The notes under the pieces are model-generated. The model did not search any database. It was not told the origin of the DNA and was given only the letters and a program-made list of their open reading frames with translations. A stretch of 64,000 nucleotides of DNA from Roseibacillus sp. (GTDB lineage Bacteria > Verrucomicrobiota > Verrucomicrobiia > Verrucomicrobiales > Akkermansiaceae): the NCBI GenBank assembly GCA_051251855.1, contig JBPOGI010000001.1:544001-608000 (forward strand), given 5' to 3'. A program made the translations under genes and the position numbers. Below, piece by piece: positions 3-35,259 of the stretch (positions within the stretch are counted from its first letter, which is position 1; each line of letters starts with the position of its first letter).

Positions 3-1451
3 GCGGGCACTCCGTTCGAGGTTGCTTTTGACAATGCGGTCGCCGGACTCAGTTCGGGAGAAAGCTCGACCGGCACTCTTCGTTTGACGTGGGTGGCTCT
101 GGACAACGTCACTACCGAGACGATTGATATTTTCTTAAGCGCAACCGCAGATGACTCCCTCGTGACAACGTTCACTTGGGATGGAGGAGGCTCAAACAAT
201 CGCTGGACGGTAGGTGAGAATTGGTTGGGCGATGCTTCGCCTCCGGAGCCCTTGCCTGTCGGGAATTTTACTGATGTGGTTCTCGCGGATGCCGGAAATC
301 GAGTGGTTTCGAATCTCTACAGTAACTTCACAGTTAGAAATCTGGCGGTCGATGCCTCGGTTGATGATGCTTTTACTGTGAATATTTTTCGGTCGAGCTC
401 TTATGTGAGGAGCCTGACTTTTGAGAACGATGGCAGTCCTGCGAGCTTGAGTGTCGATGCCGGCGCGGAGGGGGCTCTTCTTTTTAGCGACTTTGATACC
501 GCTGGGTCGATCCTATTGCACGATGATTTAGAGCTCGTCCACAACGGGACCGGGAATCTGACCTTTGACGTTTCGATTGCCGAGCAGACAGGGGAAGCGA
601 ATGGAGTGACCAGTTCAGGAAGTGGGAACGTGATCATGCAGGGTGTGAATACCTACACTGGCGATACTATCGTGGAGGCCGGTTCTTTGACTTTGGAGGC
701 CGGTAGTTCGCTGAGCTTCGTTCCAACTGCTGATGAGGTGAGTAACCAACTTTCGGGAGTCTCCGCTGGAACAGGGACGGTCAATTTGGCTGGTGAAATT
801 TATCTCGATCTTGAGTTGGCTGAGAGCAGTTTAGGAAATCGCTGGGTTCTGATCGACGATTCTGACCTCAATGTCGTTTATGATGCCGTCAGCTTTAGCG
901 TTAACAGCTCGGAGGGAATGTTTTCTAACAATGCTGGGATTTGGACTCTGCAGGCTGGAGAGGTAGCTTGGACTTTCACAGAGGAGACCGGAGTTTTGGA
1001 AGTCATGGGAGAGCCCTATGAGACGTGGGCTGAAGGCGCTTTCGTTCACCCGTTCACCGAGACTGAACCTTTGGCTGATTTTGATGGCGATGGTCTTGTG
1101 AACTATCTTGAATTTGTTCTCGGAGGCGATCCGACCGTTTTTGAAGCAGACATCGGTCTCTCCTTCGATGTGCAGAGTGACGACGTTGTATTTGTCTTCA
1201 ACCGATCTGATCTGTCGAAAGAGTCAGCTGCCTCTTCGGTGCGGGTAGAGGTGTCTGAGGACCTCGCGTTTATCACGCCGGGGAATGATATTCCGATTAG
1301 CGAGGTCAGTGAAGCTGGCCCAATTGGCGAACTCGAAGCCTCCTACACAGTTTCCAATGGTGATGGGTTTGACGCCGTGGTGGTCACGATACCAAGAGCT
1401 GGACTAGAACAGATTTTTGTCCGTCTCGCCGTAACTTTGCCTATTGAGTAG
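3..1451 (+). CDS. Large secreted protein, 5'-truncated, with an autotransporter-associated beta-strand (passenger-associated) repeat and a Verrucomicrobia-type C-terminal domain
   Basis: The frame is open from position 3 (AGTPFEVAFDN...), so the start lies upstream of the window. Contains WDGGGSNNRWTVGENW and a GVTSSGSGNVIMQGVNTYTGDTIVEAGSLTL repeat. C-terminal part has YETWA...DFDGDGLVNYLEFVLGGDP and ends ...QIFVRLAVT. Very acidic. Confidence 0.75.
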   Translation, partial: AGTPFEVAFDNAVAGLSSGESSTGTLRLTWVALDNVTTETIDIFLSATADDSLVTTFTWDGGGSNNRWTVGENWLGDASPPEPLPVGNFTDVVLADAGNRVVSNLYSNFTVRNLAVDASVDDAFTVNIFRSSSYVRSLTFENDGSPASLSVDAGAEGALLFSDFDTAGSILLHDDLELVHNGTGNLTFDVSIAEQTGEANGVTSSGSGNVIMQGVNTYTGDTIVEAGSLTLEAGSSLSFVPTADEVSNQLSGVSAGTGTVNLAGEIYLDLELAESSLGNRWVLIDDSDLNVVYDAVSFSVNSSEGMFSNNAGIWTLQAGEVAWTFTEETGVLEVMGEPYETWAEGAFVHPFTETEPLADFDGDGLVNYLEFVLGGDPTVFEADIGLSFDVQSDDVVFVFNRSDLSKESAASSVRVEVSEDLAFITPGNDIPISEVSEAGPIGELEASYTVSNGDGFDAVVVTIPRAGLEQIFVRLAVTLPIE

Positions 1452-1541: not shown

Positions 1542-1632
1542 GTTACGTGGGGATGCCAGTGCGTGCCATACTTGTGCTATATTCCAGGACCTTAGTCCGT
1601 AAATGACTACGTAGCCTACTTTGAGAATCCTT

Positions 1633-3099
1633 ATGAAACTTGGTCAATCCATCGAAATCTTCCGCAAGTCCTTTTCGTTTTTGCAACAAATCAGTCTGCA
1701 GCGTGGGGCGAGTCTTCTGGCCTCTTGTCTTCTTTTGCCGGTAGTGGGGGCATTTGCCGAAGAACGTCCGAATATTATCTTCATCTTCGCGGATGATTGG
1801 GGATATGGCGATGTGGGGATTCATGGGAGTACCTTTTGTGAGACGCCGCATCTCGACCAAATGGCGAAGGAGGGAATGGATTTTGCCAACTTTACAGTGA
1901 ATAGCCCAGTTTGCACGCCCAGCAGAGTCGCGGTGATGACGGGGCACTTTCCAGCGCGGCACTCGATTCATCAGCATTTCCAAGGAGTAAAGGCGCACAT
2001 CAAGCGGGGGATGCCAGATTGGCTGGATGCGGAGGTGACGATGTTACCGCGTCTCTTACAAGAGTCAGGATATAAGACGGGTCACTTTGGGAAGTGGCAT
2101 TTGGGGAGTTCGGGAGATTCTCCGACCGAGGATGCTTATGGCTACGATCGGTTTGCGACCTTCAATGGTTCTGGGGAAAACGAAATTCCTAAGGAGGGGT
2201 TGGCGTCGGTGGATCATGCTGAGAAATTTATCCGTGAGTTTAAGGATGAGACTTTCTTTGTGAATCTCTGGCTGCACGAGGCTCACTTGGCGCACTATCC
2301 TCAAGAGAGATACATGGAGCATTTTAAGGACCTAGATGAGCAGAAGCAGGTCTACGCCTCTATCATTGCGGAGGGAGACGAAGGGGTGGGACGGATTCTG
2401 ACTTTGCTGAAGGAGTTGGAAATCGACGAGAATACTTTGGTTGTTTTTTCGTCTGATAATGGCCCGGAGGCGACTCGAGATGAGAACGAGAAATTGCACA
2501 ATCTCAAAAAGGCGAAGGCGAAAGGGCAGCCTCATGACGGCGGTCTCGGTGGTTATTATTCGGTGGGTGAGAGTGGGGGCTTGAAGGGGAAGAAGAGATC
2601 GCTTTTTGCGGGAGGAGTTCGGGTGCCCTTTATCGTGCGATGGCCGGGAGTCGTTCCTGCGGGGAAGACGGACAAGAAGTCGGTCGTCACCGCGGTTGAT
2701 TTGTTGCCTACTTTTTTGGAGGTAGCGGGGGTGAAGTTGCCTGAGGGCTACGAGCCGGATGGAGAAAGCGCCTATTCAGCCTTCAAAGGAGAATCTTTTC
2801 AGAGGACCAAGCCTCTCTTTTGGGAATGGCGAGGAGGAAGCGAACAGCCCGACACTTGGCCTTCGCTGAGCGTACGTGACGGCAAGTGGATGTTGTTGCT
2901 CAATAAAGATGAGAAGAAGGCTGAACTCTACGATTTGGAGGCCGATTGGGCGCAGAAGAATGATTTGGCGGCCGAGAATCCAAGGAAGGTTTCCAAGCTC
3001 ACTAAGAAGATCGATGACTGGAAAGCGAGTTTGCCCACGCAACCTAGTAAGAATGCGCTTTCGAAAGCACGTAACAAGAAGACTAAAGATGCAAAATAA
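1633..3099 (+). CDS. Cys-type sulfatase (S1 family, tentatively S1_17-like)
   Basis: PNIIFIFADDWGYGD, CTPSR formylglycine motif followed by VMTG, GKWHLG, SSDNG, GGVRVPFIVRWPG; signal peptide. ATG at 1633 is preferred over TTG 1621. Confidence 0.93.
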   Translation: MKLGQSIEIFRKSFSFLQQISLQRGASLLASCLLLPVVGAFAEERPNIIFIFADDWGYGDVGIHGSTFCETPHLDQMAKEGMDFANFTVNSPVCTPSRVAVMTGHFPARHSIHQHFQGVKAHIKRGMPDWLDAEVTMLPRLLQESGYKTGHFGKWHLGSSGDSPTEDAYGYDRFATFNGSGENEIPKEGLASVDHAEKFIREFKDETFFVNLWLHEAHLAHYPQERYMEHFKDLDEQKQVYASIIAEGDEGVGRILTLLKELEIDENTLVVFSSDNGPEATRDENEKLHNLKKAKAKGQPHDGGLGGYYSVGESGGLKGKKRSLFAGGVRVPFIVRWPGVVPAGKTDKKSVVTAVDLLPTFLEVAGVKLPEGYEPDGESAYSAFKGESFQRTKPLFWEWRGGSEQPDTWPSLSVRDGKWMLLLNKDEKKAELYDLEADWAQKNDLAAENPRKVSKLTKKIDDWKASLPTQPSKNALSKARNKKTKDAK

Positions 3100-4585
3100 T
3101 CGAATTGTTGGAAACGTTATAGCCCTAGCACTTGTCGTTGGAGGTGAAATTACCTCTTTGGTTGCTGCTGAGTCCTTGAAGGGGTCAAAGCCCAATATCA
3201 TTCTCGTGATGACTGATGACCAAGGGATGGGCGACCTTTCCTGTATGGGCAACGAGGTGGTGAGGACTCCGAAGATTGATGCCTTCTTTGAAAAGGCGAC
3301 ACGTTTCACGGATTTTCAGGTGAGTCCTACATGTGCGCCGACGCGAGCGGCGATGATGAGCGGTCGAGTGGCCTTTAAGAATGGAGTGACCCATACCATC
3401 ATGCAGCGCGAGCGTATGGCGTTGGATACCTTTACTTTGCCACAGGCGCTCAAGACCGCTGGGTATGGAACTGGGATTTTTGGAAAGTGGCATCTTGGCG
3501 ACGAGGATGAGTATCTCCCGGGTAGCCGAGGCTTTGATGAAGTGTTGATTCATGGCTCAGGTGGGATTGGGCAGGTGCCTCTGGGGGACTTTCCTCCGAA
3601 TAAGGAGAACCTCTATTTCGACAATGTCCTGCTGCACAATGAGACGATCGTGAAGACGAAGGGCTACTGCACCGATTTGTTCTTTAAAGAAGCAATGGGA
3701 TGGGTTTGGAAGCAGCATGAAGCAAAGAAGCCTTACTTTGCCTACATCTCTTTGAATGCTCCTCATGCTCCCTTGGTGGCTCCTGAGAAATATACCCAAC
3801 GCTTTATTGACCTCGGATACGACAAGGGAACAGCTGGCCGCTATGGGATGGTGGAGAACATCGATGACAACTTTGGACTCTTGATGGACAAGTTGACTCA
3901 ATGGGAGGCGTTGGAGAATACCCTTGTGATCTTTATGACCGACAATGGAGCGACCCACCTCAGTGGAAAGCTCAATGGCAAAAAATTGAGGCACTTTAAT
4001 GCGAACTTGCGGGGCGGTAAGAACTCACCTTTTGAGGGCGGTTCTCATGTGCCTGCCTTTTGGCAATGGAAAGGGGTTTTGGATGAAGGAGTAGATATCG
4101 AGGCGCTCACCGCTCATATTGACCTCTATCCTACGTTTATAGAACTCGCGGGGGCGGAGCTTTCCGAGGAAATTCAGGAGATGGATGGCCGTTCTCTGCT
4201 TCCGCTGTTAGAAGACCCAAAGGCGGAGTGGGCGGACCGAGAACTCTTCTTTCATTGCGGGCGTTGGAATTCAGGCAAGCGCGAGGCGGCCAAGTTTGCC
4301 AAGTGTGCGGTGCGCACTGAGCAGTGGCGTTTGGTGAACAATAAGATGCTCTTTGATATCTCCAAGGACCCGAGTGAGACCACGGACATTTTTGCTGAGA
4401 ATCCTGAGGTAGTGGCGAAGCTTCAGAAGTCCTATGACGCTTGGTGGGAGTCCACCCTTCCGTTGATGGTGAATGAAGGGTTACCTAGGGTGGCCGCTGA
4501 AGACCAATCGCTTTCGATTCGTTACTACAAGCAGCTCGAGGAAAAGGGGATTCCGGACTATGAGCCTCATCTAGAAACTCCCTGA
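3089..4585 (+). CDS. Cys-type arylsulfatase
   Basis: PNIILVMTDDQG, CAPTR motif, GKWHLG, MTDNG. The ATG at 3089 overlaps the upstream stop by 11 bp; the ORF-track start at 2876 lies inside the previous gene. Confidence 0.93.
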   Translation: MQNNRIVGNVIALALVVGGEITSLVAAESLKGSKPNIILVMTDDQGMGDLSCMGNEVVRTPKIDAFFEKATRFTDFQVSPTCAPTRAAMMSGRVAFKNGVTHTIMQRERMALDTFTLPQALKTAGYGTGIFGKWHLGDEDEYLPGSRGFDEVLIHGSGGIGQVPLGDFPPNKENLYFDNVLLHNETIVKTKGYCTDLFFKEAMGWVWKQHEAKKPYFAYISLNAPHAPLVAPEKYTQRFIDLGYDKGTAGRYGMVENIDDNFGLLMDKLTQWEALENTLVIFMTDNGATHLSGKLNGKKLRHFNANLRGGKNSPFEGGSHVPAFWQWKGVLDEGVDIEALTAHIDLYPTFIELAGAELSEEIQEMDGRSLLPLLEDPKAEWADRELFFHCGRWNSGKREAAKFAKCAVRTEQWRLVNNKMLFDISKDPSETTDIFAENPEVVAKLQKSYDAWWESTLPLMVNEGLPRVAAEDQSLSIRYYKQLEEKGIPDYEPHLETP

Positions 4586-4598
4586 GACAGAAAATTAG

Positions 4599-6767
4599 AT
4601 GAAGATAATTCTCACGGTAATCTTGATCTTGGCCGCTTTTTGCAGCTGTCATGGAGCTTCACCACGCGTTGATTTTTATCTGTCACCCAACGGCTCGGAT
4701 GATTGGTCGGGGACACGTGCTGAACCAAATCAACAGAGGACTGACGGACCCTTCGCTACTTTGGAGCGCGCTCGCGATGCCGTGAGGGTTTTGAAGAGGA
4801 GCAAAAGGAGAGACCTTCGGGTGCAAGTGAGAGGAGGGAACTATTCTCTGGAAAAGACAGTTGTCTTTGAACTCCAAGACTCGGGACGTGGAGAGGCAAA
4901 AGTCATCTACGAAGCATATCCTAACGAGAAGCCCATCTTTGATTCAGGACAGCCCATCACAAACTGGCGAAAGGTTACCACTACAATTCCGGGATTGCCT
5001 GAAAACGCTCAAGGGAAGGTCTGGGAAGCCGACGTTTCGAAGCAGTTTTTTACGCTGTATGATGAAGAGGGAATGCTACCGCGGGCGCGGTCGAAGGGAT
5101 TCATTCCGCTCAAAGGAAGCACTCGGGACCGTGTTATTTTTCCAAAGGGGATGTTGAAGGGGTGGGCCAACCTCAAGGACGTGGAAATTGTGGTGCGTCC
5201 GAACCATGCTTGGATCGTAAATATTCTTCCTGTCGTTTCAGTGGATGAAGAGAAGCAGCGAGCTGAATTGTCTGTGGAGTCTACCTATGTGATGTCTGAA
5301 CTTCATTTCTTAAAAGGGACAGAGTCTTGCTGGGTTGAAAACGTGGTGGAGGCCATTGATGAGCCTGGGGAGTGGGCTCTCAATACGGATGCGGGTAAAG
5401 TCTACCTATGGCCGCGTAATGATTCACCTCCAGTTCGAGTCTCTGCCCCTCGTCTGATGGAGTATATCAGGGTGGAAGGTCGTATCGACAAAGAGGGACC
5501 GAAGGATGCTCCCGTGAAAAACCTCTCCTTCCGAGGACTGACTTTCATCAATGGTGAACGCTATTCCATGAGAGCTGACGATGCTGGGCTTCAGCACGAT
5601 TGGGACTTTCACGACAAGGGCAATGCTTTGCTTCGCCTACGAGGAACGGAGAACTGCGCTGTGGAGAAGTGCCACTTTGCTCATAGCGGGGGCGGCGCTA
5701 TTCGAGTGGATCTACACGGACAGAAGAACATGATTTCGGGCAATGTTATCGAGCACATGGGCGGTACGGGAATTCTGCTTTGTGGTTATGGTCCTGGAAC
5801 GAAGGATGTGAATCACGATAATGTCGTATACAATAATCATATTCACCATCCGGGGCAGATTTATGCTCACTCGCCGGGTATTATGATTTGGCAGAGTGGT
5901 AAGAATCGAGTGGCGAATAATCTGGTGCATCATACTCCTTACACCGCGATTATTCTTTCAGGATGTGTCACCGAATTTTTCAAAAAAGATAAGGGGCGGG
6001 AAGTCGGCAGAACTATTCGGAGGCATGAGGTTCACAAGCTTCCAAAGGGCTATGGTTTGGAGGATGTGCGGCCCTACTTGCACACCAAAAGTAACCTTAT
6101 TGAGCTGAACGAGATTCATCATGCCATGGAGAAACTAGGCGATGGCAACGGGATCTATATTCGTGGCGCAGGGGCGGGGAACGTGATTCGGAAAAACTAC
6201 ATTCATCATCTTGTTGCCCCCATGATTATGCAGGCCGCAATCCGAACTGATGGCGGGCAGAAGGATACTTTGATTGCGGAGAATCTCATCTACAAATGCA
6301 CTTCTCAGGGAATTTTGATAAAGCTCAATAATCGTTGCGAGAACAACATCGTTGCGGACATCATCGCTCCACCTAGAGGTTACTATCTTTCGCTGCGCGA
6401 AGGGCCCATGGATGGCGCGACGATCCAGCGGAACATTCTTTACTCTTCGGGGACTGAAGTGACCTTTATGGATGAGTTGAACGCTCGGAAAAAGAATCCC
6501 TCGGAAGATCGACGGGGACGGGAAATCGCGCGGGCAAAGGACGCAGATACGGATTATAACCTCTATTTTTGCGCAGCTGATCCGACACTAAGTGATGAAT
6601 GGTTGCGTTCCCAAGTGGCTTTGGGGATGGACGAACATAGCTTGGCGACCGATCCGCTTTTTGTGGATGCGGACAATGGTGACTTTCGGTTTCAACCCGA
6701 TTCACCCGCACACAAGCTTGGGATCGTGCCAATTGACCTCACCCAAATCGGCTTAAGGGAGGAATGA
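4599..6767 (+). CDS. Right-handed parallel beta-helix protein, GH141-like (putative alpha-L-fucosidase/fucanase)
   Basis: Signal peptide; N-terminal DFYLSPNGSDDWSG...DGPFATLERARDAVR; ENVVEAIDEPGEW; repeated N-x-I-x-x-N-x-I-H-H beta-helix turns; C-terminal DPLFVD...GDFRF...SPA. Confidence 0.75.
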   Translation: MKIILTVILILAAFCSCHGASPRVDFYLSPNGSDDWSGTRAEPNQQRTDGPFATLERARDAVRVLKRSKRRDLRVQVRGGNYSLEKTVVFELQDSGRGEAKVIYEAYPNEKPIFDSGQPITNWRKVTTTIPGLPENAQGKVWEADVSKQFFTLYDEEGMLPRARSKGFIPLKGSTRDRVIFPKGMLKGWANLKDVEIVVRPNHAWIVNILPVVSVDEEKQRAELSVESTYVMSELHFLKGTESCWVENVVEAIDEPGEWALNTDAGKVYLWPRNDSPPVRVSAPRLMEYIRVEGRIDKEGPKDAPVKNLSFRGLTFINGERYSMRADDAGLQHDWDFHDKGNALLRLRGTENCAVEKCHFAHSGGGAIRVDLHGQKNMISGNVIEHMGGTGILLCGYGPGTKDVNHDNVVYNNHIHHPGQIYAHSPGIMIWQSGKNRVANNLVHHTPYTAIILSGCVTEFFKKDKGREVGRTIRRHEVHKLPKGYGLEDVRPYLHTKSNLIELNEIHHAMEKLGDGNGIYIRGAGAGNVIRKNYIHHLVAPMIMQAAIRTDGGQKDTLIAENLIYKCTSQGILIKLNNRCENNIVADIIAPPRGYYLSLREGPMDGATIQRNILYSSGTEVTFMDELNARKKNPSEDRRGREIARAKDADTDYNLYFCAADPTLSDEWLRSQVALGMDEHSLATDPLFVDADNGDFRFQPDSPAHKLGIVPIDLTQIGLREE

Positions 6768-6778
6768 ACTGAGTTCGC

Positions 6779-9700
6779 ATGAGAGGTAAGAAAAATAGAG
6801 TAAGAGGAGTAGATCGGGACCGGGCCGGATTTTCGCTCATCGTAACGGTGACGGTGATGATTCTCCTCAGCCTGATCGCAGTCGGTTTACTTTCACTTTC
6901 GACCACGGTTTTGCGCAGCGCTACAAGTGACCGAGATAGGCAGCTGGCTCGTAGTAATGCGCGTTTGGCATTGATGTTGGCGATGGGTGAACTCCAAAAA
7001 TACGCAGGCCCGGATACACGCATCACGGCTCCTTCTGAATCGCTGGCGGGGGTCAATGGTTCACGCTTCGTCACGGGTGCTTGGCGGTCTTGGGAAGGAG
7101 AGGACCATGATCCTCGGACAGGTCAGCCTCTTCAGCCCGACTATGATTCAAAGGTGGAACCATACGATTCGGATAATTCGCTCGATGGACGCTTCCTAGG
7201 ATGGTTGCTCTCTGGGCCGGAGCAGGGAAACGGTGCGGAGTCACCGCCAAAGGTATCGGCCTCTGGTAAGTCGATTCCGATTCTCGGTCCGGGAACCCTT
7301 GGAAAGGGAACGGGCAAGGAAGTTCATCTAGAGCCAACGACTGTTGGTGAAGAGGGGGCCTACGCTTGGTGGGTGGAAGGGGAGAATGTGAAGTCTCTGA
7401 TCACTCATGATGGGGAAGAACTAGAAGAGGTTGAGGAATGGGCTGGGAGGTTGGCTTCGTATGGCCAGCCTCGTGTGGAGTCCTTCGGTCTCGCGGATTC
7501 AGTAGATTTGGCGAGTTCACCCAGCCGCAAGACTCTTGACCTAGCCGACAGCGGGGATGAAGAGGGGGGTGATGAAGGGAAGTCCGAAGGGGTGGGGAAA
7601 TACTTTCATGAACTCTCTGTTAGGAGTCGGGGCCTACTCACCAACTCGGCCAATGGTGGCTGGCGCCGAGACTTATCTCTTCTCACCGAGCAATGGCTGG
7701 ACGTCAAGGAGAGCCTTCAAGGGCCAGGAGGAACTGGACTATTTACATTGGCTCCGGGAGTGGAAGCGCCCATGAGCACTGCTGGTCTGATCTATCCTTG
7801 GGGGATGGAACAGGATTACTTGGTGATTGGAAGCGAGAAAAACAACAATATTTCGGAGGAGGGAGGCCCCTCTTCGAGTTGGGATGCCTTGGTTGATTTT
7901 GCGGGCCAATATAAAGAGGCTCAAGGTGGCGCTGGCGTGAGCTCGTTCTCGATTCGGCAGGGTGGGAGGGACGAGGTCGCACGACGGCCCATCATTACCC
8001 GCTTCCATTGGGTGTATTCCTTTGGTTCAGAGAGGCAAGGTGACGGCCAGTATCGAGCCTTTCTGAACGTCAACCCTGTCTTTACTTTTTGGAATCCCTA
8101 CAATGTAGAGATTGAGGACTTTGATCCTTTTGACATCCGCATTACTGAACCAATGCCCTATGGCCTCAGATTTAAAGTTGGGAACACAGTGCAGAATGCG
8201 TTCTTTCCTTTGGATAAACTGGCGAGAGATGGGGAGTTGACGATGAAGATCCAAGGTGCGGGTGGGGAACCTTGGCAGCCGGGAGAAGCTCGTCTCTATA
8301 GCGCGACTAGAGCTCTTGCGGCTAAAATAATACGAATGGAACGAGGCTTTCGAACGGACACGGGATTGAGGATACCGCTCTTTCGAAGTTATGAATCTAT
8401 TGCGGCAGGTAAATTTAAAGGAGTCGATGAACTCGTTGGAGCGGGAGCTGACCGGTTCTCCGTTGAAGTGCAAAAGTATGACGATGCTAAGTTCACCATC
8501 GAGTGCTACAAGGTGGGTGGCCATGAGATGAGCATGGAGATGCTCTATGTCCTGCCGCAGGACCTTACCGACTCCTTTTGGCCTGCCTTGGAAATCGTCA
8601 ATGATAGCGTAACCCTGAGGGATGTCGATGGAGGAGTCGATGGAGGCTCACCGTTTTTGGTCTCGATTATGCAGCACCGAGGAGTCTTTATTGAGTCGGA
8701 CAGGGAGTCGACAAGCACTCGTGGTTACTCGGACAATAAGTTCTTTGTGAATTTCACGAGTCCAAATACCTATAAAACGAATTACACACCGGAGAATTAC
8801 CCCGACGGATTCCCCTACGATTGGCTCTTCTTCACTCCCAACGATATTATCGATACCGAGGGGATGCCTCAGGCTGCGGGAAGTGATACTGATATTGGTT
8901 ACGTGGGAACGGGCTTTCGAGCGGATACAGGGTTGACCAGTTTAGTGACAGCCGAGTTGCCTTCTCGTCCTCTGAGTTCTCTGGGGGAGTTACAGCACTT
9001 TGATATTAGTAGCCATAACCCCTTCCCACCCTATACGTCGAATGCCGTTGGGAATAGTAGTGCCACCTTTGCGATAGCTCCAGACAAGGTCTATTCTGAA
9101 GAGGGAGCTCCGGAGGAACTGAGAACGGGATTCGATCATAGCTACGTTTCTAACCATCTTTTCTTCGATGATTGGTTCGTCTCTTCGATTGCCCCAGATG
9201 TTGTGGAGTCGCGCACCACCAAAGATGTCTACAATGAGTTCCTTACGGGAGAGAGGGACTTGCCCAATCACCTTTACCGTCCCGCCGAGGTTCAATCTTC
9301 GGCGAAGGCCAAGGAGAAGTCCGATGGATTGTTAGGAGATGACAAGGCTTGGGCTCAGATCGCTTCGGAGCTTGAGGTCGAGGGGATGTTCAATGTGAAC
9401 TCTACTTCCGTGGAGGCATGGTCTGCCCTGCTCAAGCACTTGCAGAATGCGAGTGTTCCTCAGATTGTGAATGAGGAAGACTCTTGGTCGATTGAGTTGG
9501 GGGAGGAAGAGGATCACCCGGTTACACGGACGACGATCACCGGAGACGCCAATGGACAGATCGATACTGACATCAGCCAGCTGGCCAGCCCGAGTCGCTT
9601 CACTGACCAGCAGATTGATGCGCTCGCTGAGGAGATCGTCCTACAGGTGAAAGAGAGAGGGCCGTTCCTCTCTCTTTCTGAGTTTGTAAACCGGAGGCTG

Positions 9701-10192
9701 ACGACTGAAGAAGACGCTAACCCCTTAGGGCTAGCTGGGGCGATAGAGACGGCTCTCGTAAGGCTTTCCGACAGACCTGAAGAAGAGAACCCTTTTAACG
9801 ATCTACAAGAGTTCTTTACGGCAAGGGTTAATGAGACGGTAGCAGTGGATCGCCCGTTTAATGAGGCTGCGCAGGGCTATCGGGCCTACGGTTTTCCTGG
9901 ATGGGCTCGCCAAGCAGATATCCTTAGGCCCCTAGCTCCTATTCTTTCGGTTCGCGATGATACCTTTGTGATTCGCGCCTATGGTGAGAGTCGGGACTCC
10001 TCAACTGGAACGGTTATGGCGCAAGCTTGGTGCGAGGCCGTGGTGCAACGTCGGGCAGATTATCTTGACCCAAACGCTGATGAGGCCACGGTTCTCCCTA
10101 GTGAGGAGACCTTGAATTCGAAGGTCAATCAGCGCTTTGGTCGTCGTTTTTCCATGGTCTCCTTCCGATGGTTAGCTCCAGGTGAGGTCTAA
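6779..10192 (+). CDS. Large PilX/GspK-like prepilin-type protein (Verrucomicrobia family resembling Verru_Chthon cassette protein A)
   Basis: Basic leader then G|FSLIVTVTVMILLSLIAVGLLSLS (class III signal, no Glu at +5); ARSNARLALMLAMGELQKYAGPDTRITA; FNVNSTSVEAW; RGPFLSLSEFVNR; C-terminal DILRPLAPILSVRDDTFVIRAYG...CEAVVQR...FGRRF. Confidence 0.75.
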   Translation: MRGKKNRVRGVDRDRAGFSLIVTVTVMILLSLIAVGLLSLSTTVLRSATSDRDRQLARSNARLALMLAMGELQKYAGPDTRITAPSESLAGVNGSRFVTGAWRSWEGEDHDPRTGQPLQPDYDSKVEPYDSDNSLDGRFLGWLLSGPEQGNGAESPPKVSASGKSIPILGPGTLGKGTGKEVHLEPTTVGEEGAYAWWVEGENVKSLITHDGEELEEVEEWAGRLASYGQPRVESFGLADSVDLASSPSRKTLDLADSGDEEGGDEGKSEGVGKYFHELSVRSRGLLTNSANGGWRRDLSLLTEQWLDVKESLQGPGGTGLFTLAPGVEAPMSTAGLIYPWGMEQDYLVIGSEKNNNISEEGGPSSSWDALVDFAGQYKEAQGGAGVSSFSIRQGGRDEVARRPIITRFHWVYSFGSERQGDGQYRAFLNVNPVFTFWNPYNVEIEDFDPFDIRITEPMPYGLRFKVGNTVQNAFFPLDKLARDGELTMKIQGAGGEPWQPGEARLYSATRALAAKIIRMERGFRTDTGLRIPLFRSYESIAAGKFKGVDELVGAGADRFSVEVQKYDDAKFTIECYKVGGHEMSMEMLYVLPQDLTDSFWPALEIVNDSVTLRDVDGGVDGGSPFLVSIMQHRGVFIESDRESTSTRGYSDNKFFVNFTSPNTYKTNYTPENYPDGFPYDWLFFTPNDIIDTEGMPQAAGSDTDIGYVGTGFRADTGLTSLVTAELPSRPLSSLGELQHFDISSHNPFPPYTSNAVGNSSATFAIAPDKVYSEEGAPEELRTGFDHSYVSNHLFFDDWFVSSIAPDVVESRTTKDVYNEFLTGERDLPNHLYRPAEVQSSAKAKEKSDGLLGDDKAWAQIASELEVEGMFNVNSTSVEAWSALLKHLQNASVPQIVNEEDSWSIELGEEEDHPVTRTTITGDANGQIDTDISQLASPSRFTDQQIDALAEEIVLQVKERGPFLSLSEFVNRRLTTEEDANPLGLAGAIETALVRLSDRPEEENPFNDLQEFFTARVNETVAVDRPFNEAAQGYRAYGFPGWARQADILRPLAPILSVRDDTFVIRAYGESRDSSTGTVMAQAWCEAVVQRRADYLDPNADEATVLPSEETLNSKVNQRFGRRFSMVSFRWLAPGEV

Positions 10193-10209
10193 ACCTATTC
10201 AATGATAAA

Positions 10210-10902
10210 ATGATAACTTTGAAGCTTCTATGGTCGATCGGATTGCTCTCCGTGCTCTTCTTCTCGGTGGACTCGGCACAAGGAGAACGGGTGGCGCGCA
10301 TCCTCTATTATGGTGCGCCGAAGGACGCTCCCGAGACGGCCTTCGTTCATCAGAAGGGCTCGAAAGTGCAGGAGGTGCCTCTCCCTCGAAACAATTTTTC
10401 GGAGTCCTTCGAGCTGGGCGCGGGTGCACTCCGGCTAGCCTTTTTTCCGTCTGAATCACTCGAAGAGATCGAGAATCCGGAAGCGGCTCCCTTCTTGGAT
10501 ATCCCCGAAGGTTGGGGGAAAGTGCTTATTCTTGTTTTTGAAGATCCGGATAACACGTTGCTACCAATCCGCTTGAAAGCCATCAATGCCAACGACAACC
10601 AGTTTGGCCCTGGGGACTTGTATTTCGTCAATTTTTCTAAGCGGACGATATTTGGGATGGTGGGGGACGAGAAGATGAATCTAAAACCAGAGGGGACGAC
10701 TATTGTATCCAGTCCTCGCAAAGCGAGAGGGGATTACAACGTGCAGTTGGACTCAGTGAAGGGAGAGGAAAAAGGCTCCCGGCGCTGGTTGCTGAGGCAA
10801 ACTTGGCGCCATCAACCAAGTGTGAGGAGAGTAGTTTTTGCAATACCTCTGCCTGCTCCTCGTAACATTAAACTCTATTCGGCACCCATTCGGAATTTCT
10901 GA
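10210..10902 (+). CDS. Exported hypothetical protein, partner of the upstream PilX-like protein
   Basis: 230 aa with a signal peptide and a beta-rich sequence; 17 bp downstream of the PilX-like gene and 25 bp upstream of the next gene. Confidence 0.7.
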
Positions 10903-10927: not shown

Positions 10928-11932
10928 ATGAAGAAGTCAAAAATTCTGCTGTTCACCCTATTCTTGATGCCCTGTTTCCTCTTTGCGGAGCAGGAAGCGC
11001 CTGTTTTGGATCCACCTGTAAAAAGGGAGAGAGGCAAAAAGGTGCAGTCTTACCTCAAGACAACAGGGGAGCAGAAGAGGGACCTTGTGTATAAAAAGAT
11101 TGGGCGACGTGAGTTGCAGCTGGACCTTTATTATCCTACCGCGAAACGTGAAGAGTCGTCGCCGGTCATTATCTATACTCACGGAGGAGGTTGGGCAGCG
11201 GGAAGTCGGGCCGGAGTGACGAAGGGTTTGTTTTCCAAGGTTTTCAGGGAACTTCTAGGAGAGGGCTTCTGCGTGGCCTCTGTTGATTATCGTCTTTACA
11301 ATAAAGGGGGGACGGTGGCGATGCGTGACTGTGTGATCGACTCCAAGGATGCGGTGCGCTACCTCGCTAAGAATGCGGAGTCGCTGGGTCTTGACTCGGA
11401 ACGCTTCTACGTGATGGGCGATTCGGCAGGGGGGCAAATTGCTCAAATGCTTTTACTGACTCCGCCAGAAAGTTTGACAGGAGACTTGGAACTTGCGGAT
11501 GCTCAATATCAAATTTTAGGTGGAGTGTCTTGGTATGGACCCTGTGACTTTGAGGATCAGAGTTTGTTTAATCACGATGATCGCCCGGATTTTAAGGACC
11601 GTTTTGGTCCAAGGATTGTGGTGTCAGAAGTGACTCCTGAAGAGAGATTGAAGCTCTATCGCGAGATGAGTCCTATCAATTTCCTGAAGAAGGACAGCCC
11701 TCCCTTACTCATGATTCAAGGGGATAGCGACACCACCATTCCGGTGAAGCACGCGCACTACATGAAGAAAAGGGCTCTAGAGCTGAAGGCACCCGTGGAG
11801 GTTCTCATCGTTAAAAATTCAGGCCACAATTGGCGGAAGGTGGGGGCGGAGATTGAACCGTCGAGGGAGGATATTCTTGCGGAGACTGTTCGATTCTTTG
11901 TGGGGCATGAGAAGAGTTCGTCGAAAGATTGA
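10928..11932 (+). CDS. Alpha/beta hydrolase (HSL/BD-FAE-like carbohydrate esterase)
   Basis: HGGGW oxyanion motif, VDYRL, GDSAGG nucleophile elbow, QGDSDTTIP and a C-terminal GH; signal peptide from ATG 10928. Confidence 0.88.
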
Positions 11933-11967
11933 GCCTTCTTTCCCAGTTGAGATTGGGACACTTCCTC

Positions 11968-13731
11968 ATGAATTTTTATCGTAAATCTTTAAGGCTGTTT
12001 TTTACTCTGGGCCTTCTGTTTATCATGGGCTCAACGGCACAGTCCAAGGAGCAACCCAACGTGATTTTGATCATGACGGATGATCAGGGCTACGGTGATG
12101 TGGGGATCCATGGGAATCCGATTTTGAAGACCCCTGAGCTGGACAAGCTACACGGGGAGTCGGTTCGCTTTACGGACTTCCACGTCAGCCCCTTTTGCAC
12201 GCCGACGAGAGCAGCCTTGATGACGGGGCGTTATCCGGCTCGAACGGGGGCCTATCGGACGAGTTCGGGGCGCACTATGATGCATACCGATGAGCGTACG
12301 ATTGCGAATGTTTTTGCGGATAATGGATATCTTACTGGGATGTTCGGAAAGTGGCACTTAGGAGACAACGCTCCGCACCGGCCTCAGGATCGAGGATTTC
12401 AAGATGTGGTTTGGCATCGCTGTGGCGGGATTGGGCAGTCTTCTGATTACTGGGGGAATGATTACTTTGATGATACCTATGAGCGGGTGCGCCCGGGGAG
12501 TCAGGAAGGCTCTTTCGAAAAGTTTGAGGGTTACTGCACGGATGTCTTTTTTAGGGAAGCGATTCGTTTCGTGGAGGAGAGTAAGGATAAGCCCTTTTTC
12601 CTCTATCTACCACTGAACGCGCCGCATGGTCCTTACTTTGTGGCACCGGAGTGGTCTGAGCCGTATAAGAAGACGTCAGAAGGGAAGCCCTTTGCGAACT
12701 TCTTCGGGATGATTGCCAACTTTGATCATAACGTGGGTTTGCTGCGCCAGCGATTGGAGGCGTTGGAATTGGCTGAGGATACCATCTTGATTTTTATGAC
12801 CGATAACGGCACGTCCGCTGGAGCCAAGTTCAAGGGCTTGGACTCGGAGGCGGTGCTGGGATTCAACGCGGGGATGCGCGGGAAGAAATCTTCTCATTAT
12901 GAAGGCGGGCATCGGGTTCCTTTTTTCATTCATTGGCCAAAGGGGGGCTTGGTGGGGGGCCGTGATGTGCTCTCGATGAGCGCTCATATCGATGTCTTGC
13001 CGACCTTGGCAGAACTTTGTGGTATCGAGGTTCCAGAGTCTCACCAGCCAGATGGAATTTCCTTTAAGGAGGTGTTGGAGAATCCTGAGGCTCCTCCTCA
13101 TCGCGATCATCTCATTGTGCAGTTTCAAGGAGGACCCCATTTCAAGTCGGAGGCTGAGCCTTGGACTTCGAGTTGTGTGATCCAAGAGAACTGGAGGCTG
13201 ATGGATGGAATGGAGCTCTACGATATGAGTTCGGATTTTGCCCAACGCAACGATATTGCTGCGGAGCATCCTGACAAGGTGGCGGCTTTGCGTGAGCTTT
13301 ACTTGCCGTTTTGGGCGTCGGTTTCTCCTCGAATGACGCCGGTTTCAATCGATGTGGGGAATCCCAGCGAGAATCCCACGACTCTTTGTTCGCAGGATTG
13401 GTATATGCCCACTGGGAATCCACCGTGGAATTTTAGAGAGATTCAACGACTTCCGCGAAGAACGGGTCCTTGGCATGTCGATGTGAAGAAGGCGGGTAAG
13501 TATCGCCTCACGTTGAGGCAATTTCCCAAGGAAGCGGGTAGGGAAGTGGTCGCGGTACGGGCACGCGTCGAGATTGCCGGGCTGGAGAAAGAGGTCACGG
13601 TGGAGGCTGGTAGCCAAGGGGTGGTCTTGGAGATGGAGCTGCCGGCTGGGAAGACGCAGTTGGTGACTTACCTGTATGATGAAAAGGGTAAGGCTGGAGG
13701 CGCGTATTTCACAGAGGTGGAGGCACTTTAG
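11968..13731 (+). CDS. Cys-type arylsulfatase with an extra C-terminal beta domain
   Basis: PNVILIMTDDQGYGD, CTPTR motif, GKWHLGDN, MTDNG, YEGGHRVP; ~110 aa C-terminal extension (GKYRLTLRQFP...). Start could also be TTG 11929. Confidence 0.93.
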   Translation: MNFYRKSLRLFFTLGLLFIMGSTAQSKEQPNVILIMTDDQGYGDVGIHGNPILKTPELDKLHGESVRFTDFHVSPFCTPTRAALMTGRYPARTGAYRTSSGRTMMHTDERTIANVFADNGYLTGMFGKWHLGDNAPHRPQDRGFQDVVWHRCGGIGQSSDYWGNDYFDDTYERVRPGSQEGSFEKFEGYCTDVFFREAIRFVEESKDKPFFLYLPLNAPHGPYFVAPEWSEPYKKTSEGKPFANFFGMIANFDHNVGLLRQRLEALELAEDTILIFMTDNGTSAGAKFKGLDSEAVLGFNAGMRGKKSSHYEGGHRVPFFIHWPKGGLVGGRDVLSMSAHIDVLPTLAELCGIEVPESHQPDGISFKEVLENPEAPPHRDHLIVQFQGGPHFKSEAEPWTSSCVIQENWRLMDGMELYDMSSDFAQRNDIAAEHPDKVAALRELYLPFWASVSPRMTPVSIDVGNPSENPTTLCSQDWYMPTGNPPWNFREIQRLPRRTGPWHVDVKKAGKYRLTLRQFPKEAGREVVAVRARVEIAGLEKEVTVEAGSQGVVLEMELPAGKTQLVTYLYDEKGKAGGAYFTEVEAL

Positions 13732-13747
13732 GGAGAGAGATTTTAAG

Positions 13748-15154
13748 ATGATAAATTTGATAACACGATTCAAGACAGGCCGCGTGCTGAGCACAGCCTT
13801 TGGGGCCTTAATTTTGGCCAATGGAGCGACTGCCAAAGACAAGGTGAAAGAGAAGGAAACTTCGAAGCCGAACTTCGTGATCGTAGTCGCCGACGATATG
13901 GGGTGGGGGGATTCAGGAACTTATGGCAATGAGCTGATTAAGACTCCTAACATGGATCGTATGGCGGCCAAGGGAGTGAAGTTTACGCAATGCTACTCGG
14001 CGTGCGGAGTTTGCTCGCCCTCGCGCTCGGCGATTCTCACCGGACGTACCCCGTATCGGAATGGAGTGTGGCGGCACTTGTCGGGTAATCATGAAGCGCA
14101 TTTGCGGGAGAGTGAGATTACCTATCCAGAGCTTCTCAAAACGAAGGGGTATGAGACCTGTCACGTAGGAAAGTGGCATTTGCTTTCTAAAAATCAGTTC
14201 AACAATCCTGATTACCCTCAGCCGGGGGACCATGGCTACGACTACTGGATGTATACCCAGAACAACGCCATCCCGAGTCACAAGAACCCGAACAATTTCT
14301 TCAGAAATGGAGAGGCGGTTGGGGAGACCGAGGGATATTCTGCGCAATTGGTCGCAGCTGAGGCTGGGCATTGGTTGAAAGAGGTGCGTGATTCCAGTAA
14401 GCCTTTTGCACTTTCGATTTGGTTTCATGAACCACACTCACCCATTGCCACGGATTCTAAATTTCAAGGTCTCTACAAAGGGCACAAGAATGCAAAGTAT
14501 ATGGGAAATATCACCCAGTTAGACAATGCGTTGGGGATGGTGCTGGATGCCTTGGAAGAGCAGGGAGTGAGTGATAACACGCTCGTTTTTTTCACATCTG
14601 ACAACGGGCCTGTTCCAAGCTTTGGCGGCTCTGCGGGAGGTCTACGTGGTAACAAACGTAGCGAGTACGAGGGTGGTATTCGAGTGCCTGGTCTTGCGTG
14701 CTGGCCTGGTAAGATTGAGCCCGGAAGCGTGAGCGAGGTTCCTGTGGTTGGAACGGACGTGTTCAGCACAGTACTAGACATCGTAGGCGTGCCGCTTCCT
14801 GAGGATCGCACCATCGATGGCGCGAGTATGATTCCTGCCTTCACAGGGAAGCCGATTGAGAGGAAGGTTCCTCTCTTCTGGCGGACACATGTTTCAGGAC
14901 CAGAGGACCGGGTGGCGATGCGTATTGGTGACTGGAAGATTGTGGCTGACGAGACTTTGACCAAGTTCCAACTGTTTGAAGTTCAAAAGGACTGGAAGGA
15001 AGAGACCGACCTAGCCGCTGAAAACCCTGAGAAGACAGAAGAGATGAAGGTGAAGCTCCTGAAGCTCTGGGAAGAAATCAAAGAAGAAGGTCCCAACGAG
15101 TGGTGGGAGTCATCAACGCAAAAGCCCAAGAAGGGTGGAAAGATGAGCTACTAA
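13748..15154 (+). CDS. Cys-type sulfatase
   Basis: PNFVIVVADDMGWGD, CSPSR motif, GKWHL, TSDNG, YEGGIRVP. Confidence 0.93.
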   Translation: MINLITRFKTGRVLSTAFGALILANGATAKDKVKEKETSKPNFVIVVADDMGWGDSGTYGNELIKTPNMDRMAAKGVKFTQCYSACGVCSPSRSAILTGRTPYRNGVWRHLSGNHEAHLRESEITYPELLKTKGYETCHVGKWHLLSKNQFNNPDYPQPGDHGYDYWMYTQNNAIPSHKNPNNFFRNGEAVGETEGYSAQLVAAEAGHWLKEVRDSSKPFALSIWFHEPHSPIATDSKFQGLYKGHKNAKYMGNITQLDNALGMVLDALEEQGVSDNTLVFFTSDNGPVPSFGGSAGGLRGNKRSEYEGGIRVPGLACWPGKIEPGSVSEVPVVGTDVFSTVLDIVGVPLPEDRTIDGASMIPAFTGKPIERKVPLFWRTHVSGPEDRVAMRIGDWKIVADETLTKFQLFEVQKDWKEETDLAAENPEKTEEMKVKLLKLWEEIKEEGPNEWWESSTQKPKKGGKMSY

Positions 15155-16566
15155 TGATGAAGGCTTCAGCGCTTTCGAAAATTGTAATAGCGCTGGGGCT
15201 TTGTTTGTTTGCGAAGGCGGGTGCGGAACCCGAGAAGCCTAATGTCGTTCTTATTATGGCGGATGACGTCAGCTGGGAGGCTTTTGGTTGTTATGGGGCG
15301 GTGGATTATGAAACGCCTAATCTCGATCGTTTGGCGGCGGAGGGGGTGCGATTTGAGCACTGTTATTCCACCCCGATTTGCACCACTTCGCGGGTGATGC
15401 TCATGACTGGAGAAGAGAACTTTCGGAACTATACTCATTTCGGTTACCTCGATCCTGAGGAGAAGACGATTGGTCACCTCATGAAGGAGGCAGGCTACAA
15501 GACCGCGATTGCGGGTAAGTGGCAGTTGAGCGGCCTTTATAACAAAGACGAGTTCGCGGACCATCAAGATGTCACGCGTCCGAATCGGGCGGGTTTCGAT
15601 GAGTATTGCCTTTGGCAGCTGACGAAGGGGAAGGAGCTCGGGGAACGCTTTTGGAGTCCGCCCTTAGAGAAGAATGGGGAATTTCTGACAGCGGAAGAGA
15701 ATCAGGGAAAGTATGGTCCGGATCTCTTTCGTGATTTTATCTGTGATTTCATGGAGCGAAATCGAGAGGAGCCTTTCTTTGTCTACTATCCGATGGTGCT
15801 GGTTCACGATCCTTTTTTACCAACACCTGATAGTATTGGTGAGTCCGGCCTAGGTAAGGGGAGCAAGAAGGGGACAGGGAAACAGAGCGTAGAAGTGAAA
15901 AAGCGCAACTTCGTCGCGATGGTTCGATATATGGACAAAATTGTGGGACAGATTTTTGATAAGATCGATGAACTTGGCGAGCTCGAGAACACTCTCATTC
16001 TTTTTACGGCGGATAATGGTACTGACCGAAGGATCACCTCAAATTGGAATGGGCGTAGCATCCGAGGAGGAAAGGGAGGGATGAAGAATAGCGGAACTCA
16101 TGTGCCTTTGATTGCTTTTTGGAAAGGGCAGTCGGAGCAGGGACTCGAGTGTCAGGACTTGGTTCAGTTTAATGACTTCTACCCTACTCTTGCGGAGCTG
16201 GCAGGGCTCGAGCTTGATGAAGACGATCCCAAGAGTGGGCAGAGCTTTTTGCCTCAGGTTTTGGGGGAGGAGGGGGAGTCCCGTCAGTTTGTGCTTTGCC
16301 ATTACCAGCCTTATTGGGGAGCGAGCGTGAATGCAGGAGCTTTCGTGCGAACGGAGCGCTTCAAGCTCTATGACGATGGTCGCTTCTACGACGTGTCTCA
16401 TGATTTGGAAGAAGAGAAGAATTTCGCAGAGGCTCTTGAAGGGGAGGAGGTCATCGAGGCTTACCAGTATCTTTCGAAGCTCATTGAAAAAATTCCTCCG
16501 GTGCCGAAAGGTAGTAGAAAGAGTCGAAATCGGCCCGTTCATGCTGATTGGCCACTTGTGAAATAA
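15154..16566 (+). CDS. Cys-type sulfatase
   Basis: [19 protein letters not shown] motif, GKWQL, TADNG; TAATG stop/start overlap with the previous gene. Confidence 0.92.
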
Positions 16567-16570
16567 CTTT

Positions 16571-18112
16571 ATGAAAATGTATTCAATCCTTCAAAGTCCT
16601 CAGAAAATGGCGGCGCTCGTTGTTGTGGGCTTTATTAGCTTAAGCAGCGCAGGGGCGGCAGAGCGGCCTAATATTATTTATCTGATGGCGGATGATCAGA
16701 ATATCTTGTCGGTGGGTGCATACGGTAATGATGAGGTGCAGACCCCGGAGATGGATAAGCTGGCGGCGGAGGGAGTGACCTTTGACCGGCACTACAATAC
16801 CACTGCGATTTGTATGGCGAGTCGAGGGAACGTTTTCACCGGAATGTATGAATACCGGACGGGCACGAACTTCAATCATGGCGATATGAAGCCTGAGATT
16901 TGGGCGAAGACTTATCCCGTGCTCTTGCGTGAGGCGGGGTATTTTACGGGGTTTGCTGGCAAGTTTGGGATGGATGTCATTGGTTTGGGCGAGGGGAAGA
17001 AGAATGCTGGGCTGCCAGCAGAAGACTTTGATGTTTGGGCTGGTTCTCCTGGGCAGACCTCCTATGCGACCAGGCAGAACGAATCGATGAGGAAGTATGC
17101 GGAGAAGTATCCTCACTCGACTTTGTCCTATGGTGCCTTTGGGCAGGATTTCATTCGTGAGGCGGCGAAGCAGGAGAAGCCCTTTTGCTTGTCGATTAGC
17201 TTTAAGGCTCCTCATCAGCCGACGACGCCAGACCCTCGGTTTGACGATGTCTACAAGGGGAAGACGTTCACTAAACCCGAGAATTATGGTCGCGAAAAGG
17301 GCGAGCACCTCTCGCCGCAAAGTAAGATGGGGCGTCAGTATGAACGCTTTATCTCTTGGAAATACGACAGCGATTACGACCGAGTGATGGCGACCTATTA
17401 CCAACAGGTGTATGGAATTGATGTTGCGGTTGGGATGATTCGTGAGGAGCTGGAGGCGCAGGGGTTGGCTGATAATACGGTCATTATTTATACCAGTGAC
17501 AATGGTTTTATTTGCGGTTCTCACGGATATGGTTCGAAGGTGTTACCGATGGAAGAATCTTCTCGTGCGCCTCTGATGATTGTGGACCCACGCAGTTCTT
17601 CGGCAGGGAAGAAGCTTCGAAGTGGGGTCTTGACTGGCAATGTGGACTTTATGCCAACCATTATGGAGTTGGCAGGTTTGCCTGTTCCGGATGGGCTGGA
17701 TGGAGTGAGCCTTTTGCCTTTGTTAGAGGAGCCAGATAAGGACCTTCGAGAGGAAATGGCGTTCATCAATGTTTATGGGCCCGATCCAACTAAGTCCCTC
17801 ACTGTTTTGACCAAGACGGTGAAGTATACTTATTGGTGGTTTGGAAGTGAGGAGATGGAGCCGGCGGAGGAGCTCTTTGACTTGGCTGAGGATCCTCTTG
17901 AGTTGACGAATCTAGCAGGAAGTGAAGAGGCGGCGGCCAAGCTGGAGGTGATGCGTCAGGAGTATGATAGACAGCTGGCTCTCTGGAAAAAGCATGCCGA
18001 TAAGGAAGGCGCCTACGCAAAGTATGGCACTCTCTTTGACCGCTCCATTCCTTGGCAGGAGAAGACGAAACTTATGAAGCGAAAACGCAAAGCTGAAAAG
18101 GCTTCGCGGTAG
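16571..18112 (+). CDS. Cys-type sulfatase (tentatively S1_25-like)
   Basis: [16 protein letters not shown] motif, [32 protein letters not shown]. Confidence 0.92.
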
Positions 18113-35193: not shown

Positions 35194-35259
35194 TCTCTTG
35201 AAAAACAGCTGCGATTGGTTCGCGGCAAGACTTTCTTACAAGGGTCACTAGGTTCTACA

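What the first reader, a model, noticed from the sequence alone, without database searches (positions are those of the whole stretch)
6779..10902. A giant PilX/GspK-like prepilin plus a small partner sits in the middle of a sulfated-glycan operon, where SusC/SusD would normally be
Seen: the 1137-aa protein has a class III (prepilin peptidase) leader G|FSLIV with no Glu at +5. It is followed 17 bp later by a 230-aa exported protein. Both lie between the GH141-like enzyme and the esterase with gaps of 11-25 bp, so they are probably co-transcribed with six sulfatases. The operon has no TonB-dependent receptor, ABC or MFS transporter, and no other pilus genes. Established: absence of Glu+5 marks tip-located minor (pseudo)pilins of the GspK/PilX class, and Bacteroidota PULs use SusCD for glycan capture. 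Inference: this is a locus-specific, exchangeable pilus-tip module. Its conserved N- and C-termini would dock on a shared type IV/T2SS-like machine encoded elsewhere, while its ~700-aa middle binds the polysaccharide or its particle. That would be a pilus-based glycan capture or uptake system.
Basis: partly seen in the sequence, partly recalled or inferred. Interest (0 to 1): 0.8.

Follow-up and report, generated by a model that had tools for sequence, protein, structure and literature searches.

The report
Swappable giant pilus-tip cap family
This sugar-degradation operon encodes a giant protein predicted to have the fold of the cap on bacterial type IV filaments, plus a secreted partner predicted to dock on its variable head; the genome holds nine such pairs and one cap-less set of tip pilins, so the pairs likely act as interchangeable, substrate-specific filament tips.

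Summary
Observation confirmed. The 1137-aa protein (A) has a class III leader without Glu+5; its model (pLDDT 90) matches GspK/XcpX (Z 10.2-10.8). The 230-aa partner (B) is a tandem transthyretin-like protein predicted to dock on A's variable head (0.88 versus controls 0.00). The genome has nine A-B pairs; relatives have up to about 33. New here: (1) an H-I-J minor-pilin cluster lacking any cap gene in 21 of 21 regions read co-occurs with A; (2) A's docking helix is matched to the host genome (80% identity within genomes, 31% across orders) while its body is not; (3) one related genus carries an invertible expressed/silent pair that differs in the head. So A-B pairs likely are interchangeable filament caps. 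The glycan link is real but partial: about twofold sulfatase enrichment and strong in this subfamily (14 of 16 loci), weak in another (4 of 14). Glycan binding, uptake, co-transcription and A-to-I/J docking are untested; 'replaces SusC/D' is an analogy. This scan noted the A-B pair before on other genomes; my ten paper searches listed no description.

The parts
6779..10192 (+). Protein A: 1137-aa giant K-type (GspK/XcpX-fold) tip pilin
6779..6829 (+). Class III leader peptide ending in Gly (residues 1-17)
   Evidence: sequence
6830..7006 (+). Pilin alpha1 helix (18-76), no Glu+5; first 30 residues host-matched among paralogues
7694..8953 (+). Variable head (306-725), with a predicted beta-sandwich at about 405-640 (7991-8698) and the main predicted B-docking loop 688-717 (8840-8929)
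9374..10189 (+). Conserved C-terminal part (866-1137): helical region read as GspK alpha-domain-like (inferred) and terminal strands (1059-1137) that the fold match places in the pilin core
10210..10902 (+). Protein B: 230-aa secreted tandem transthyretin-like (PepT2-ECD/AlgF-like) cognate partner of A
4599..6767 (+). Beta-helix protein, GH141-like (weak GH141_M hit), upstream neighbour
1621..4585 (+). Two sulfatases upstream (1621-3099; about 3089-4585)
10928..11932 (+). BD-FAE family esterase, downstream neighbour
11929..18112 (+). Four sulfatases downstream

Best explanation
A is predicted to be the cap subunit of a type IV filament and B its predicted cognate partner; the pair likely completes, in trans, a cap-less H-I-J pilin set encoded once elsewhere, giving a filament tip whose variable head likely recognises this locus's substrate, a sulfated fucose-type glycan or the particle carrying it. 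Steps: prepilin peptidase cleaves A at G|F (inferred from motif; the enzyme is in the genome); B is exported by Sec and binds A's head (predicted); A's host-matched helix and terminal strand join I-J and prime the filament (inferred from fold and co-occurrence); the filament passes a secretin, perhaps the MUL2-like one (which one is unknown); the head holds substrate at the cell for the co-encoded sulfatases and hydrolases (inferred). Which cap is made would follow the induction of each locus (inferred).
For: Fold: XcpX Z 10.8 (207 aligned, rmsd 3.0), GspK Z 10.2 (233 aligned, rmsd 3.5), ComZ Z 7.1, aligned ranges spanning both termini (model pLDDT 89.9). No Glu+5 in 0 of 96; K subunits lack it and GspK supplies its terminal strand in cis (PMC13533445, passages). 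A(270-1060)+B scored 0.88, best of 3 controls 0.00; runs agree in at least 97% of contacts, partner pLDDT at least 89; the mark was reached by 116 of 157 solved and 2 of 215 mismatched pairs, roughly applicable with my alignments. B follows 9 of 9 own paralogues and 70 of 80 loci. H-I-J cluster with no E5-less pilin, A or B in 21 of 21 regions of 6-19 kb and none after J in 30 of 30 short loci; 47 of 51 genomes with a strong A hit have the J orthologue. Helix identity 0.80 within genomes although bodies are under 42% identical (38 pairs), 0.32 across orders although bodies exceed 50% (31 pairs); synonymous codons not shared (0.26 vs 0.29 expected); the nine own bodies are not one clade (p-AU 1e-56). 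Expressed plus silent copies in both orientations in genus g2, differing at mature residues 400-750. Sulfatase within 10 kb: 6 of 9 own (33% background, P 0.04), 14 of 31 in G294 (19%, rotation P 0.017). 14 of 16 loci of the query's clade hold a sulfatase or glycoside hydrolase, often GH29, GH95 or a beta-helix protein.
Against: No binding, localisation or expression data. The head matches no lectin clearly (Ig/FnIII-like rows at Z 3.8 or less in a whole-protein search). A is net acidic (K+R 99, D+E 171; head 25 vs 33), awkward for a polyanion without cations. Enrichment is modest, not significant at 5 kb (P 0.35 own, 0.12 G294), and the own count includes the locus that raised the idea. A second subfamily has a sulfatase or GH in only 4 of 14 loci; four G081 loci have no sulfatase or classical GH; G099 has about 17 copies but 2 sulfatases. 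Six genomes have J with no A hit and 15 have a (mostly weak) A hit with no strong J (cut-offs set after seeing the lists; kin are not independent). The genome has other pilin sets with their own K, so which machine A joins is not shown.
Confidence: 0.5

Rival explanations
1. A-B is a swappable cap of a periplasmic T2SS-like piston. It selects the enzymes encoded beside it (sulfatases, hydrolases, PATR proteins) for export through a secretin, with B as adaptor or folding partner, and does not touch the glycan.
For: Best fold matches are T2SS caps; HIJK contacts secreted effectors in T2SS (PMC10191384, passages); B's fold matches AlgF-C (Z 8.8) and the PepT2 extracellular domain (Z 12.9), recalled as protein-interaction modules; neighbours include proteases and other secreted proteins as well as CAZymes; acidic head.
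Against: The genome's GspG-bearing T2SS operon has its own 321-aa K. Cassette switching of the head in genus g2 fits an exposed domain better than a periplasmic one. Several paralogues have no recognisable secreted cargo beside them.
Confidence: 0.2
2. A-B is a surface-exposed variable adhesin tip for cells, proteins or surfaces in general, diversified to change targets or evade phage or host recognition. Its place in glycan loci reflects co-transfer with substrate islands rather than glycan binding.
For: Many copies outside glycan loci; tandem arrays (L031); expressed/silent switching in g2; only about twofold enrichment.
Against: Locus type follows subfamily (14 of 16 vs 4 of 14) and A-B sits inside tightly spaced CAZyme runs; in sulfatase-poor G099 all 3 loci read are next to GH92, GH5 or GH125 genes.
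Confidence: 0.22
3. A no longer enters a filament: it is an inner-membrane-anchored periplasmic binding or sensing protein, with B, that handles oligosaccharides already imported.
For: No pilus gene in the locus; two-component or AraC regulators are frequent neighbours.
Against: G-1/F+1 invariant in 92 of 92, the C-terminal strands are the most conserved part in close homologues, and the helix is host-matched, all expected only if it still docks on partner pilins; the cap-less trio co-occurs.
Confidence: 0.08

Closest known systems
GspK/XcpX cap of the T2SS GspHIJK tip complex (PDB 3ci0_K, 5vtm_X)
   Same: Class III leader, no Glu+5, pilin core built from both termini around an insertion.
   Different: About four times larger; extra beta-sandwich head; dedicated partner B; encoded apart from H-I-J and in 1 to about 33 copies; NF037980 not hit.
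Verru_Chthon cassette protein A (TIGR02600)
   Same: Giant E5-less prepilin of Verrucomicrobiota; weak N-terminal hit; UniRef names some homologues so.
   Different: 18 bits against a cut-off of 332; no B/C/D pilin genes adjacent; followed by protein B.
Modular pilins: Streptococcus sanguinis PilC/PilA and Thermus ComZ
   Same: A binding module grafted on a tip pilin; PilC binds glycans (PMC9934059, abstract and opening); ComZ and PilA are fold hits.
   Different: Single copies; here a multi-copy family with a non-pilin partner, and no binding shown.
Interchangeable tips of the Myxococcus Kil/Tad pilus (PMC12075869, abstract)
   Same: Several alternative tips with variable exposed domains on one filament.
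   Different: Tad system, four multi-pilin tips, predation; here only the K cap plus B vary and H-I-J is shared.
MUL2 type IV-like pilus locus of Akkermansiaceae (PMC13174399, whole text)
   Same: Same family of bacteria, pilus-linked glycan attachment and uptake proposed; a MUL2-like secretin locus is in this genome (G000:C9:326430-333763; gene order read by eye, secretin).
   Different: A and B are not MUL2 genes; the main text does not describe such a family and six pilin terms found nothing in the 2 supplements held.
SusC/SusD of Bacteroidota
   Same: Possibly a locus-specific recognition module inside a glycan locus.
   Different: No barrel, no SusD fold, no lipoprotein; unrelated architecture.

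Membership tests
GspK/PilK tip pilin | Class III signal (G|F plus hydrophobic tract) | tested here: met
GspK/PilK tip pilin | No Glu at +5 | tested here: met
   0 of 96 aligned rows, 0 of 53 locus ORFs
GspK/PilK tip pilin | Pilin fold with C-terminal strand supplied in cis | tested here: met
   model 46-1137 aligned to GspK 29-315, Z 10.2, rmsd 3.5, 233 residues; predicted, not solved
GspK/PilK tip pilin | Forms a complex with I and J pilins | not tested
   the one complex job went to A+B; only co-occurrence and helix matching
Canonical T2SS GspK (NF037980) | Scores to the family model and lies in a gspHIJK operon | tested here: not met
   no hit at E 0.1; no pilin gene adjacent
Verru_Chthon cassette protein A (TIGR02600) | Score over the curated cut-off | tested here: not met
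   18.1 vs 332.3 bits, residues 17-75 only
Verru_Chthon cassette protein A (TIGR02600) | Adjacent cassette B, C, D pilins | tested here: not met
   none beside any of 9 own paralogues
Lectin-bearing modular pilin (PilC type) | Grafted module has a lectin fold | tested here: inconclusive
   head gave only Z 3.8 or less within a whole-protein search; not folded alone; Atlas lists only unnamed clusters
Lectin-bearing modular pilin (PilC type) | Binds glycans | not testable with these tools
   needs a binding assay
PilC/PilY1 tip adhesin (for B) | Large beta-propeller protein donating a strand to PilK | tested here: not met
   B is 207 aa mature, two beta-sandwiches, predicted to bind A's head
SusC/SusD | TonB-dependent barrel plus SusD lipoprotein in the locus | tested here: not met
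   no such Pfam hit in the locus; 6 barrels elsewhere, SusD not found in the genome

The most novel reading that the evidence does not exclude
Verrucomicrobiota run one retractable type IV filament with a library of up to about 30 locus-encoded caps; each cap-partner pair binds the glycan of its own locus and pulls it through the secretin into the periplasm, doing the job of SusC/D. In one small-genome genus the cap's head is switched by DNA inversion or conversion.
Probability: 0.3. Interest if true: 0.92.

Novelty: new variant of a known kind. Interest (0 to 1): 0.74.

Why it matters
How Verrucomicrobiota capture and import fucoidan and mucin-type glycans without SusC/D is open (PMC13174399 calls acquisition in aquatic members largely understudied). 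This names a testable specificity element (A head plus B), a shared platform (the cap-less H-I-J cluster, one knockout) and natural allelic swaps. Even if the target is not glycan, splitting the HIJK tip into one shared trio and many dispersed caps with host-matched helices is an arrangement my searches did not find described.

Tried and rejected
Pfam: no hit for A or B, none recurring in 97 B members. PDB sequence profiles: nothing for A, only E 0.024 or weaker for B. Foldseek on the whole A model: nothing at E 0.001. Atlas: only unnamed Verrucomicrobiota clusters, AlgF at 0.78-0.79 as a lead. Promoter and terminator scans at shuffle level. No RNA holder was listed; no evidence either way. 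Profile comparison of B with the 225-aa gene after the C6 cassette (probability 2%) and of A with the C6 and C1 K proteins (31%, 3%; helix only) was inconclusive. Recent gene conversion as the cause of helix matching rejected for the own genome. The '0 of 54 with Glu+5' was circular (the pattern excluded Glu) and was redone. The careful tree did not finish; the quick tree was used, with several long own-genome branches. Two papers on the mucin utilisation loci were not held, so published transposon data could not be checked. Ten paper searches (one aimed at precedents) listed no description of this family; subscription papers and bioRxiv supplements were not visible.
Full report
Observation. 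The two ORFs, the gaps of 11, 17 and 25 bp, the leader G|FSLIV and the six sulfatases are as described. No transporter or other pilin gene was found in the run or in the 14 kb upstream. Named homologues are all Verrucomicrobiota. The genome has 101 sulfatase ORFs by my profile, 6 TonB-dependent barrels and no SusD hit (95% complete).

What A is. A has no Pfam hit and only an 18-bit N-terminal hit to TIGR02600, but at least 1438 relatives among 7999 candidates scored. The model from 120 homologues has pLDDT 89.9. Its best matches are XcpX (Z 10.8, 207 aligned, rmsd 3.0), GspK (Z 10.2, 233, 3.5) and ComZ (Z 7.1), with aligned ranges reaching both ends of A. Glu+5 is absent in 0 of 96 aligned rows (24 rows gapped) and 0 of 53 locus ORFs. 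K subunits lack Glu+5 and sit most apically, and GspK gives its terminal strand in cis (PMC13533445, passages). Identity among the nine own paralogues is 65% in the helix, 49% in the terminal strands and 13-19% in residues 306-725, which hold a predicted beta-sandwich with only weak Ig-like matches.

What B is. B follows 9 of 9 own paralogues and 70 of 80 distinct loci; 3 ORFs lacking a C-terminus were dropped, and most of the 10 misses are short loci or genus g2. Its model (pLDDT 95.5) is two transthyretin-like sandwiches, matching the PepT2 extracellular domain (Z 12.9, 171 aligned, rmsd 3.2) and AlgF-C (Z 8.8). A(270-1060) with B scored 0.88 against a best control of 0.00; contacts agree at 97% or more and partner pLDDT is at least 89; 116 of 157 solved and 2 of 215 mismatched pairs reached that mark, counts that hold only roughly with my alignments. 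The interface is mainly A 607-624 and 688-717 with B's second domain. It supports binding and does not show it. B's divergence tracks A's body (rho 0.5-0.6) and not the helix (0.19).

The missing platform. The genome has a prepilin peptidase, five secretin genes and several assembly ATPases, a GspG operon with its own 321-aa K and two further pilin cassettes with large K-like genes. It also has an H-I-J cluster at G000:C7:135143-137535 flanked by non-pilin genes. The J orthologue is essentially single-copy across the sample. No pilin leader follows J in 30 of 30 short loci, one 24-aa chance hit aside, and 21 of 21 regions of 6-19 kb hold only Glu+5 pilins and no A or B; in 11 of them one or two further pilins precede H. 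A was found in 67 of 301 genomes of the phylum. Of 51 with a strong hit, 47 have J at about 1e-10 or better; 6 genomes have J and no A hit, 15 have a mostly weak A hit and no strong J (cut-offs chosen afterwards, kin not independent). Since a K subunit caps and primes the tip complex (PMC10191384, passages), a cap-less trio and trio-less caps likely complete each other. This was not modelled.

Host-matched helix. The query's closest bodies (43-46% identity, several from Opitutales) share mostly 13-23% of the first 30 helix residues, while own paralogues at 29-30% body identity share 70-97%. Over 48 pairs, helix identity is 0.80 within genomes and 0.31 across my two order-level groups (grouping of handles inferred from family labels). 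Synonymous codons are not shared, and the own bodies are rejected as one clade (quick tree, long branches). Selection thus appears to fit each cap's helix to a host factor, as expected for a shared docking site.

Natural switching. In small-genome genus g2 of the same family (probably Akkermansia, inferred), a full gene faces a leaderless copy starting near mature residue 300, joined by inverted repeats (L068: 349 nt at 92% and 1789 nt at 100%; L069: 2965 nt at 100%). Such repeats were seen in L068, L069, L127, L128 and L129; leaderless copies also in L130 and L135; six other g2 loci (L070, L132-L134, L137, L138) and L136 showed a single gene. Orientation relative to the flanks differs between L068 and L069, and the two L068 copies differ at residues 400-750 (44-67% per 100 residues against 94-100% in the rest of the shared part). 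Inversion within a culture is not shown.

Glycan link, for and against. Own genome: 5 of 9 paralogues lie in clear glycan loci (this one, a lambda-carrageenase locus, its neighbouring sugar-acid catabolism locus, a GH97 locus, a sulfatase/CBM6 locus), 1 is weak, 3 are not. Sulfatase within 10 kb: 6 of 9 (P 0.04), not significant at 5 kb. G294: 14 of 31 loci (33 genes merged from 38 rows) against 19% at random, P 0.017; 5 kb P 0.12. The query's clade has a sulfatase or GH in 14 of 16 loci, often fucosidases (L020 too short); a second clade in 4 of 14. G099 has about 17 copies and 2 sulfatases, but its 3 loci read lie by GH92, GH5 and GH125 genes; 4 G081 loci show no sulfatase or classical GH. 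These loci were picked by similarity to the query. A is net acidic. So the family is substrate-locus associated, not sulfated-glycan specific.

Mechanism. Most likely a filament cap whose head, with B, recognises the locus substrate (0.5). Rivals: cargo-selecting cap of a secretion piston (0.2), general variable adhesin (0.22), membrane-anchored periplasmic binder (0.08). That A-B are interchangeable K-type caps is firmer (about 0.8, my estimate) than what they bind.

Known context. MUL2 pili are proposed for glycan attachment in this family (PMC13174399, whole text). A PulG-like pseudopilin with 67 homologues lies in an alginate-induced cluster of another verrucomicrobium (PMC13274419, passages); I did not compare it with A. 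Glycan-binding modular tip pilins (PMC9934059) and interchangeable Tad tips (PMC12075869) are precedents (abstracts). Also seen as passages: PMC11685898, PMC10540074, PMC4960237, PMC11131199, none describing this family. Earlier notes of this scan report the A-B pair on other genomes; two word look-ups for the cap-less trio and the switching locus returned nothing.

Verdict. Real, and a new variant of a known kind; interest 0.74. The glycan-uptake reading stays a hypothesis (0.3).

Noticed in passing
L068:7697-15203, L069:7587-14731, L127-L130, L135 (genus g2): Expressed plus silent leaderless copy of the A gene between inverted repeats, both orientations seen, alleles differing in the head: looks like an inversion or conversion switch.
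   Followed up: partly
L088:11144-13536 (G000:C7:135143-137535): Cap-less H-I-J minor pilin cluster, conserved single-copy across A-carrying genomes; preceded by one or two more pilins in 11 of 21 regions.
   Followed up: yes
L072:1-10052 (G294): TPR protein, MotA/ExbB and short genes directly upstream of an A-B pair, resembling the MUL1-type transport arrangement (resemblance recalled).
   Followed up: no
L010:5677-11694 (G000:C6:723676-729693): Complete H-I-J-K cassette with a different 1106-aa K and a 225-aa secreted gene after it; homology to A or B not shown.
   Followed up: partly
window 61627-62103; G000:C8:56994-57479: Two similar Glu+5 pilins with a Met at +1; the C8 one lies in a locus with a secretin and ATPases. 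Candidate major pilins; link to A untested.
   Followed up: no
L006:6679-7356 and G000:C1:1561101-1561820: Extra B genes: a second B after one pair, and an orphan B next to two sulfatases.
   Followed up: no
L031, L024, L030, L073, L084: Tandem arrays of two to four A-B pairs.
   Followed up: no
window 84-1451; L083, L017, L085, L087: PATR-repeat proteins recur near A-B pairs, often just upstream.
   Followed up: no
window 32545-37968: Two tandem lamin-tail-domain proteins of 882 and 846 aa.
   Followed up: no
G000:C9:326430-333763: MUL2-like locus with an 866-aa secretin, a candidate channel for the filament.
   Followed up: no
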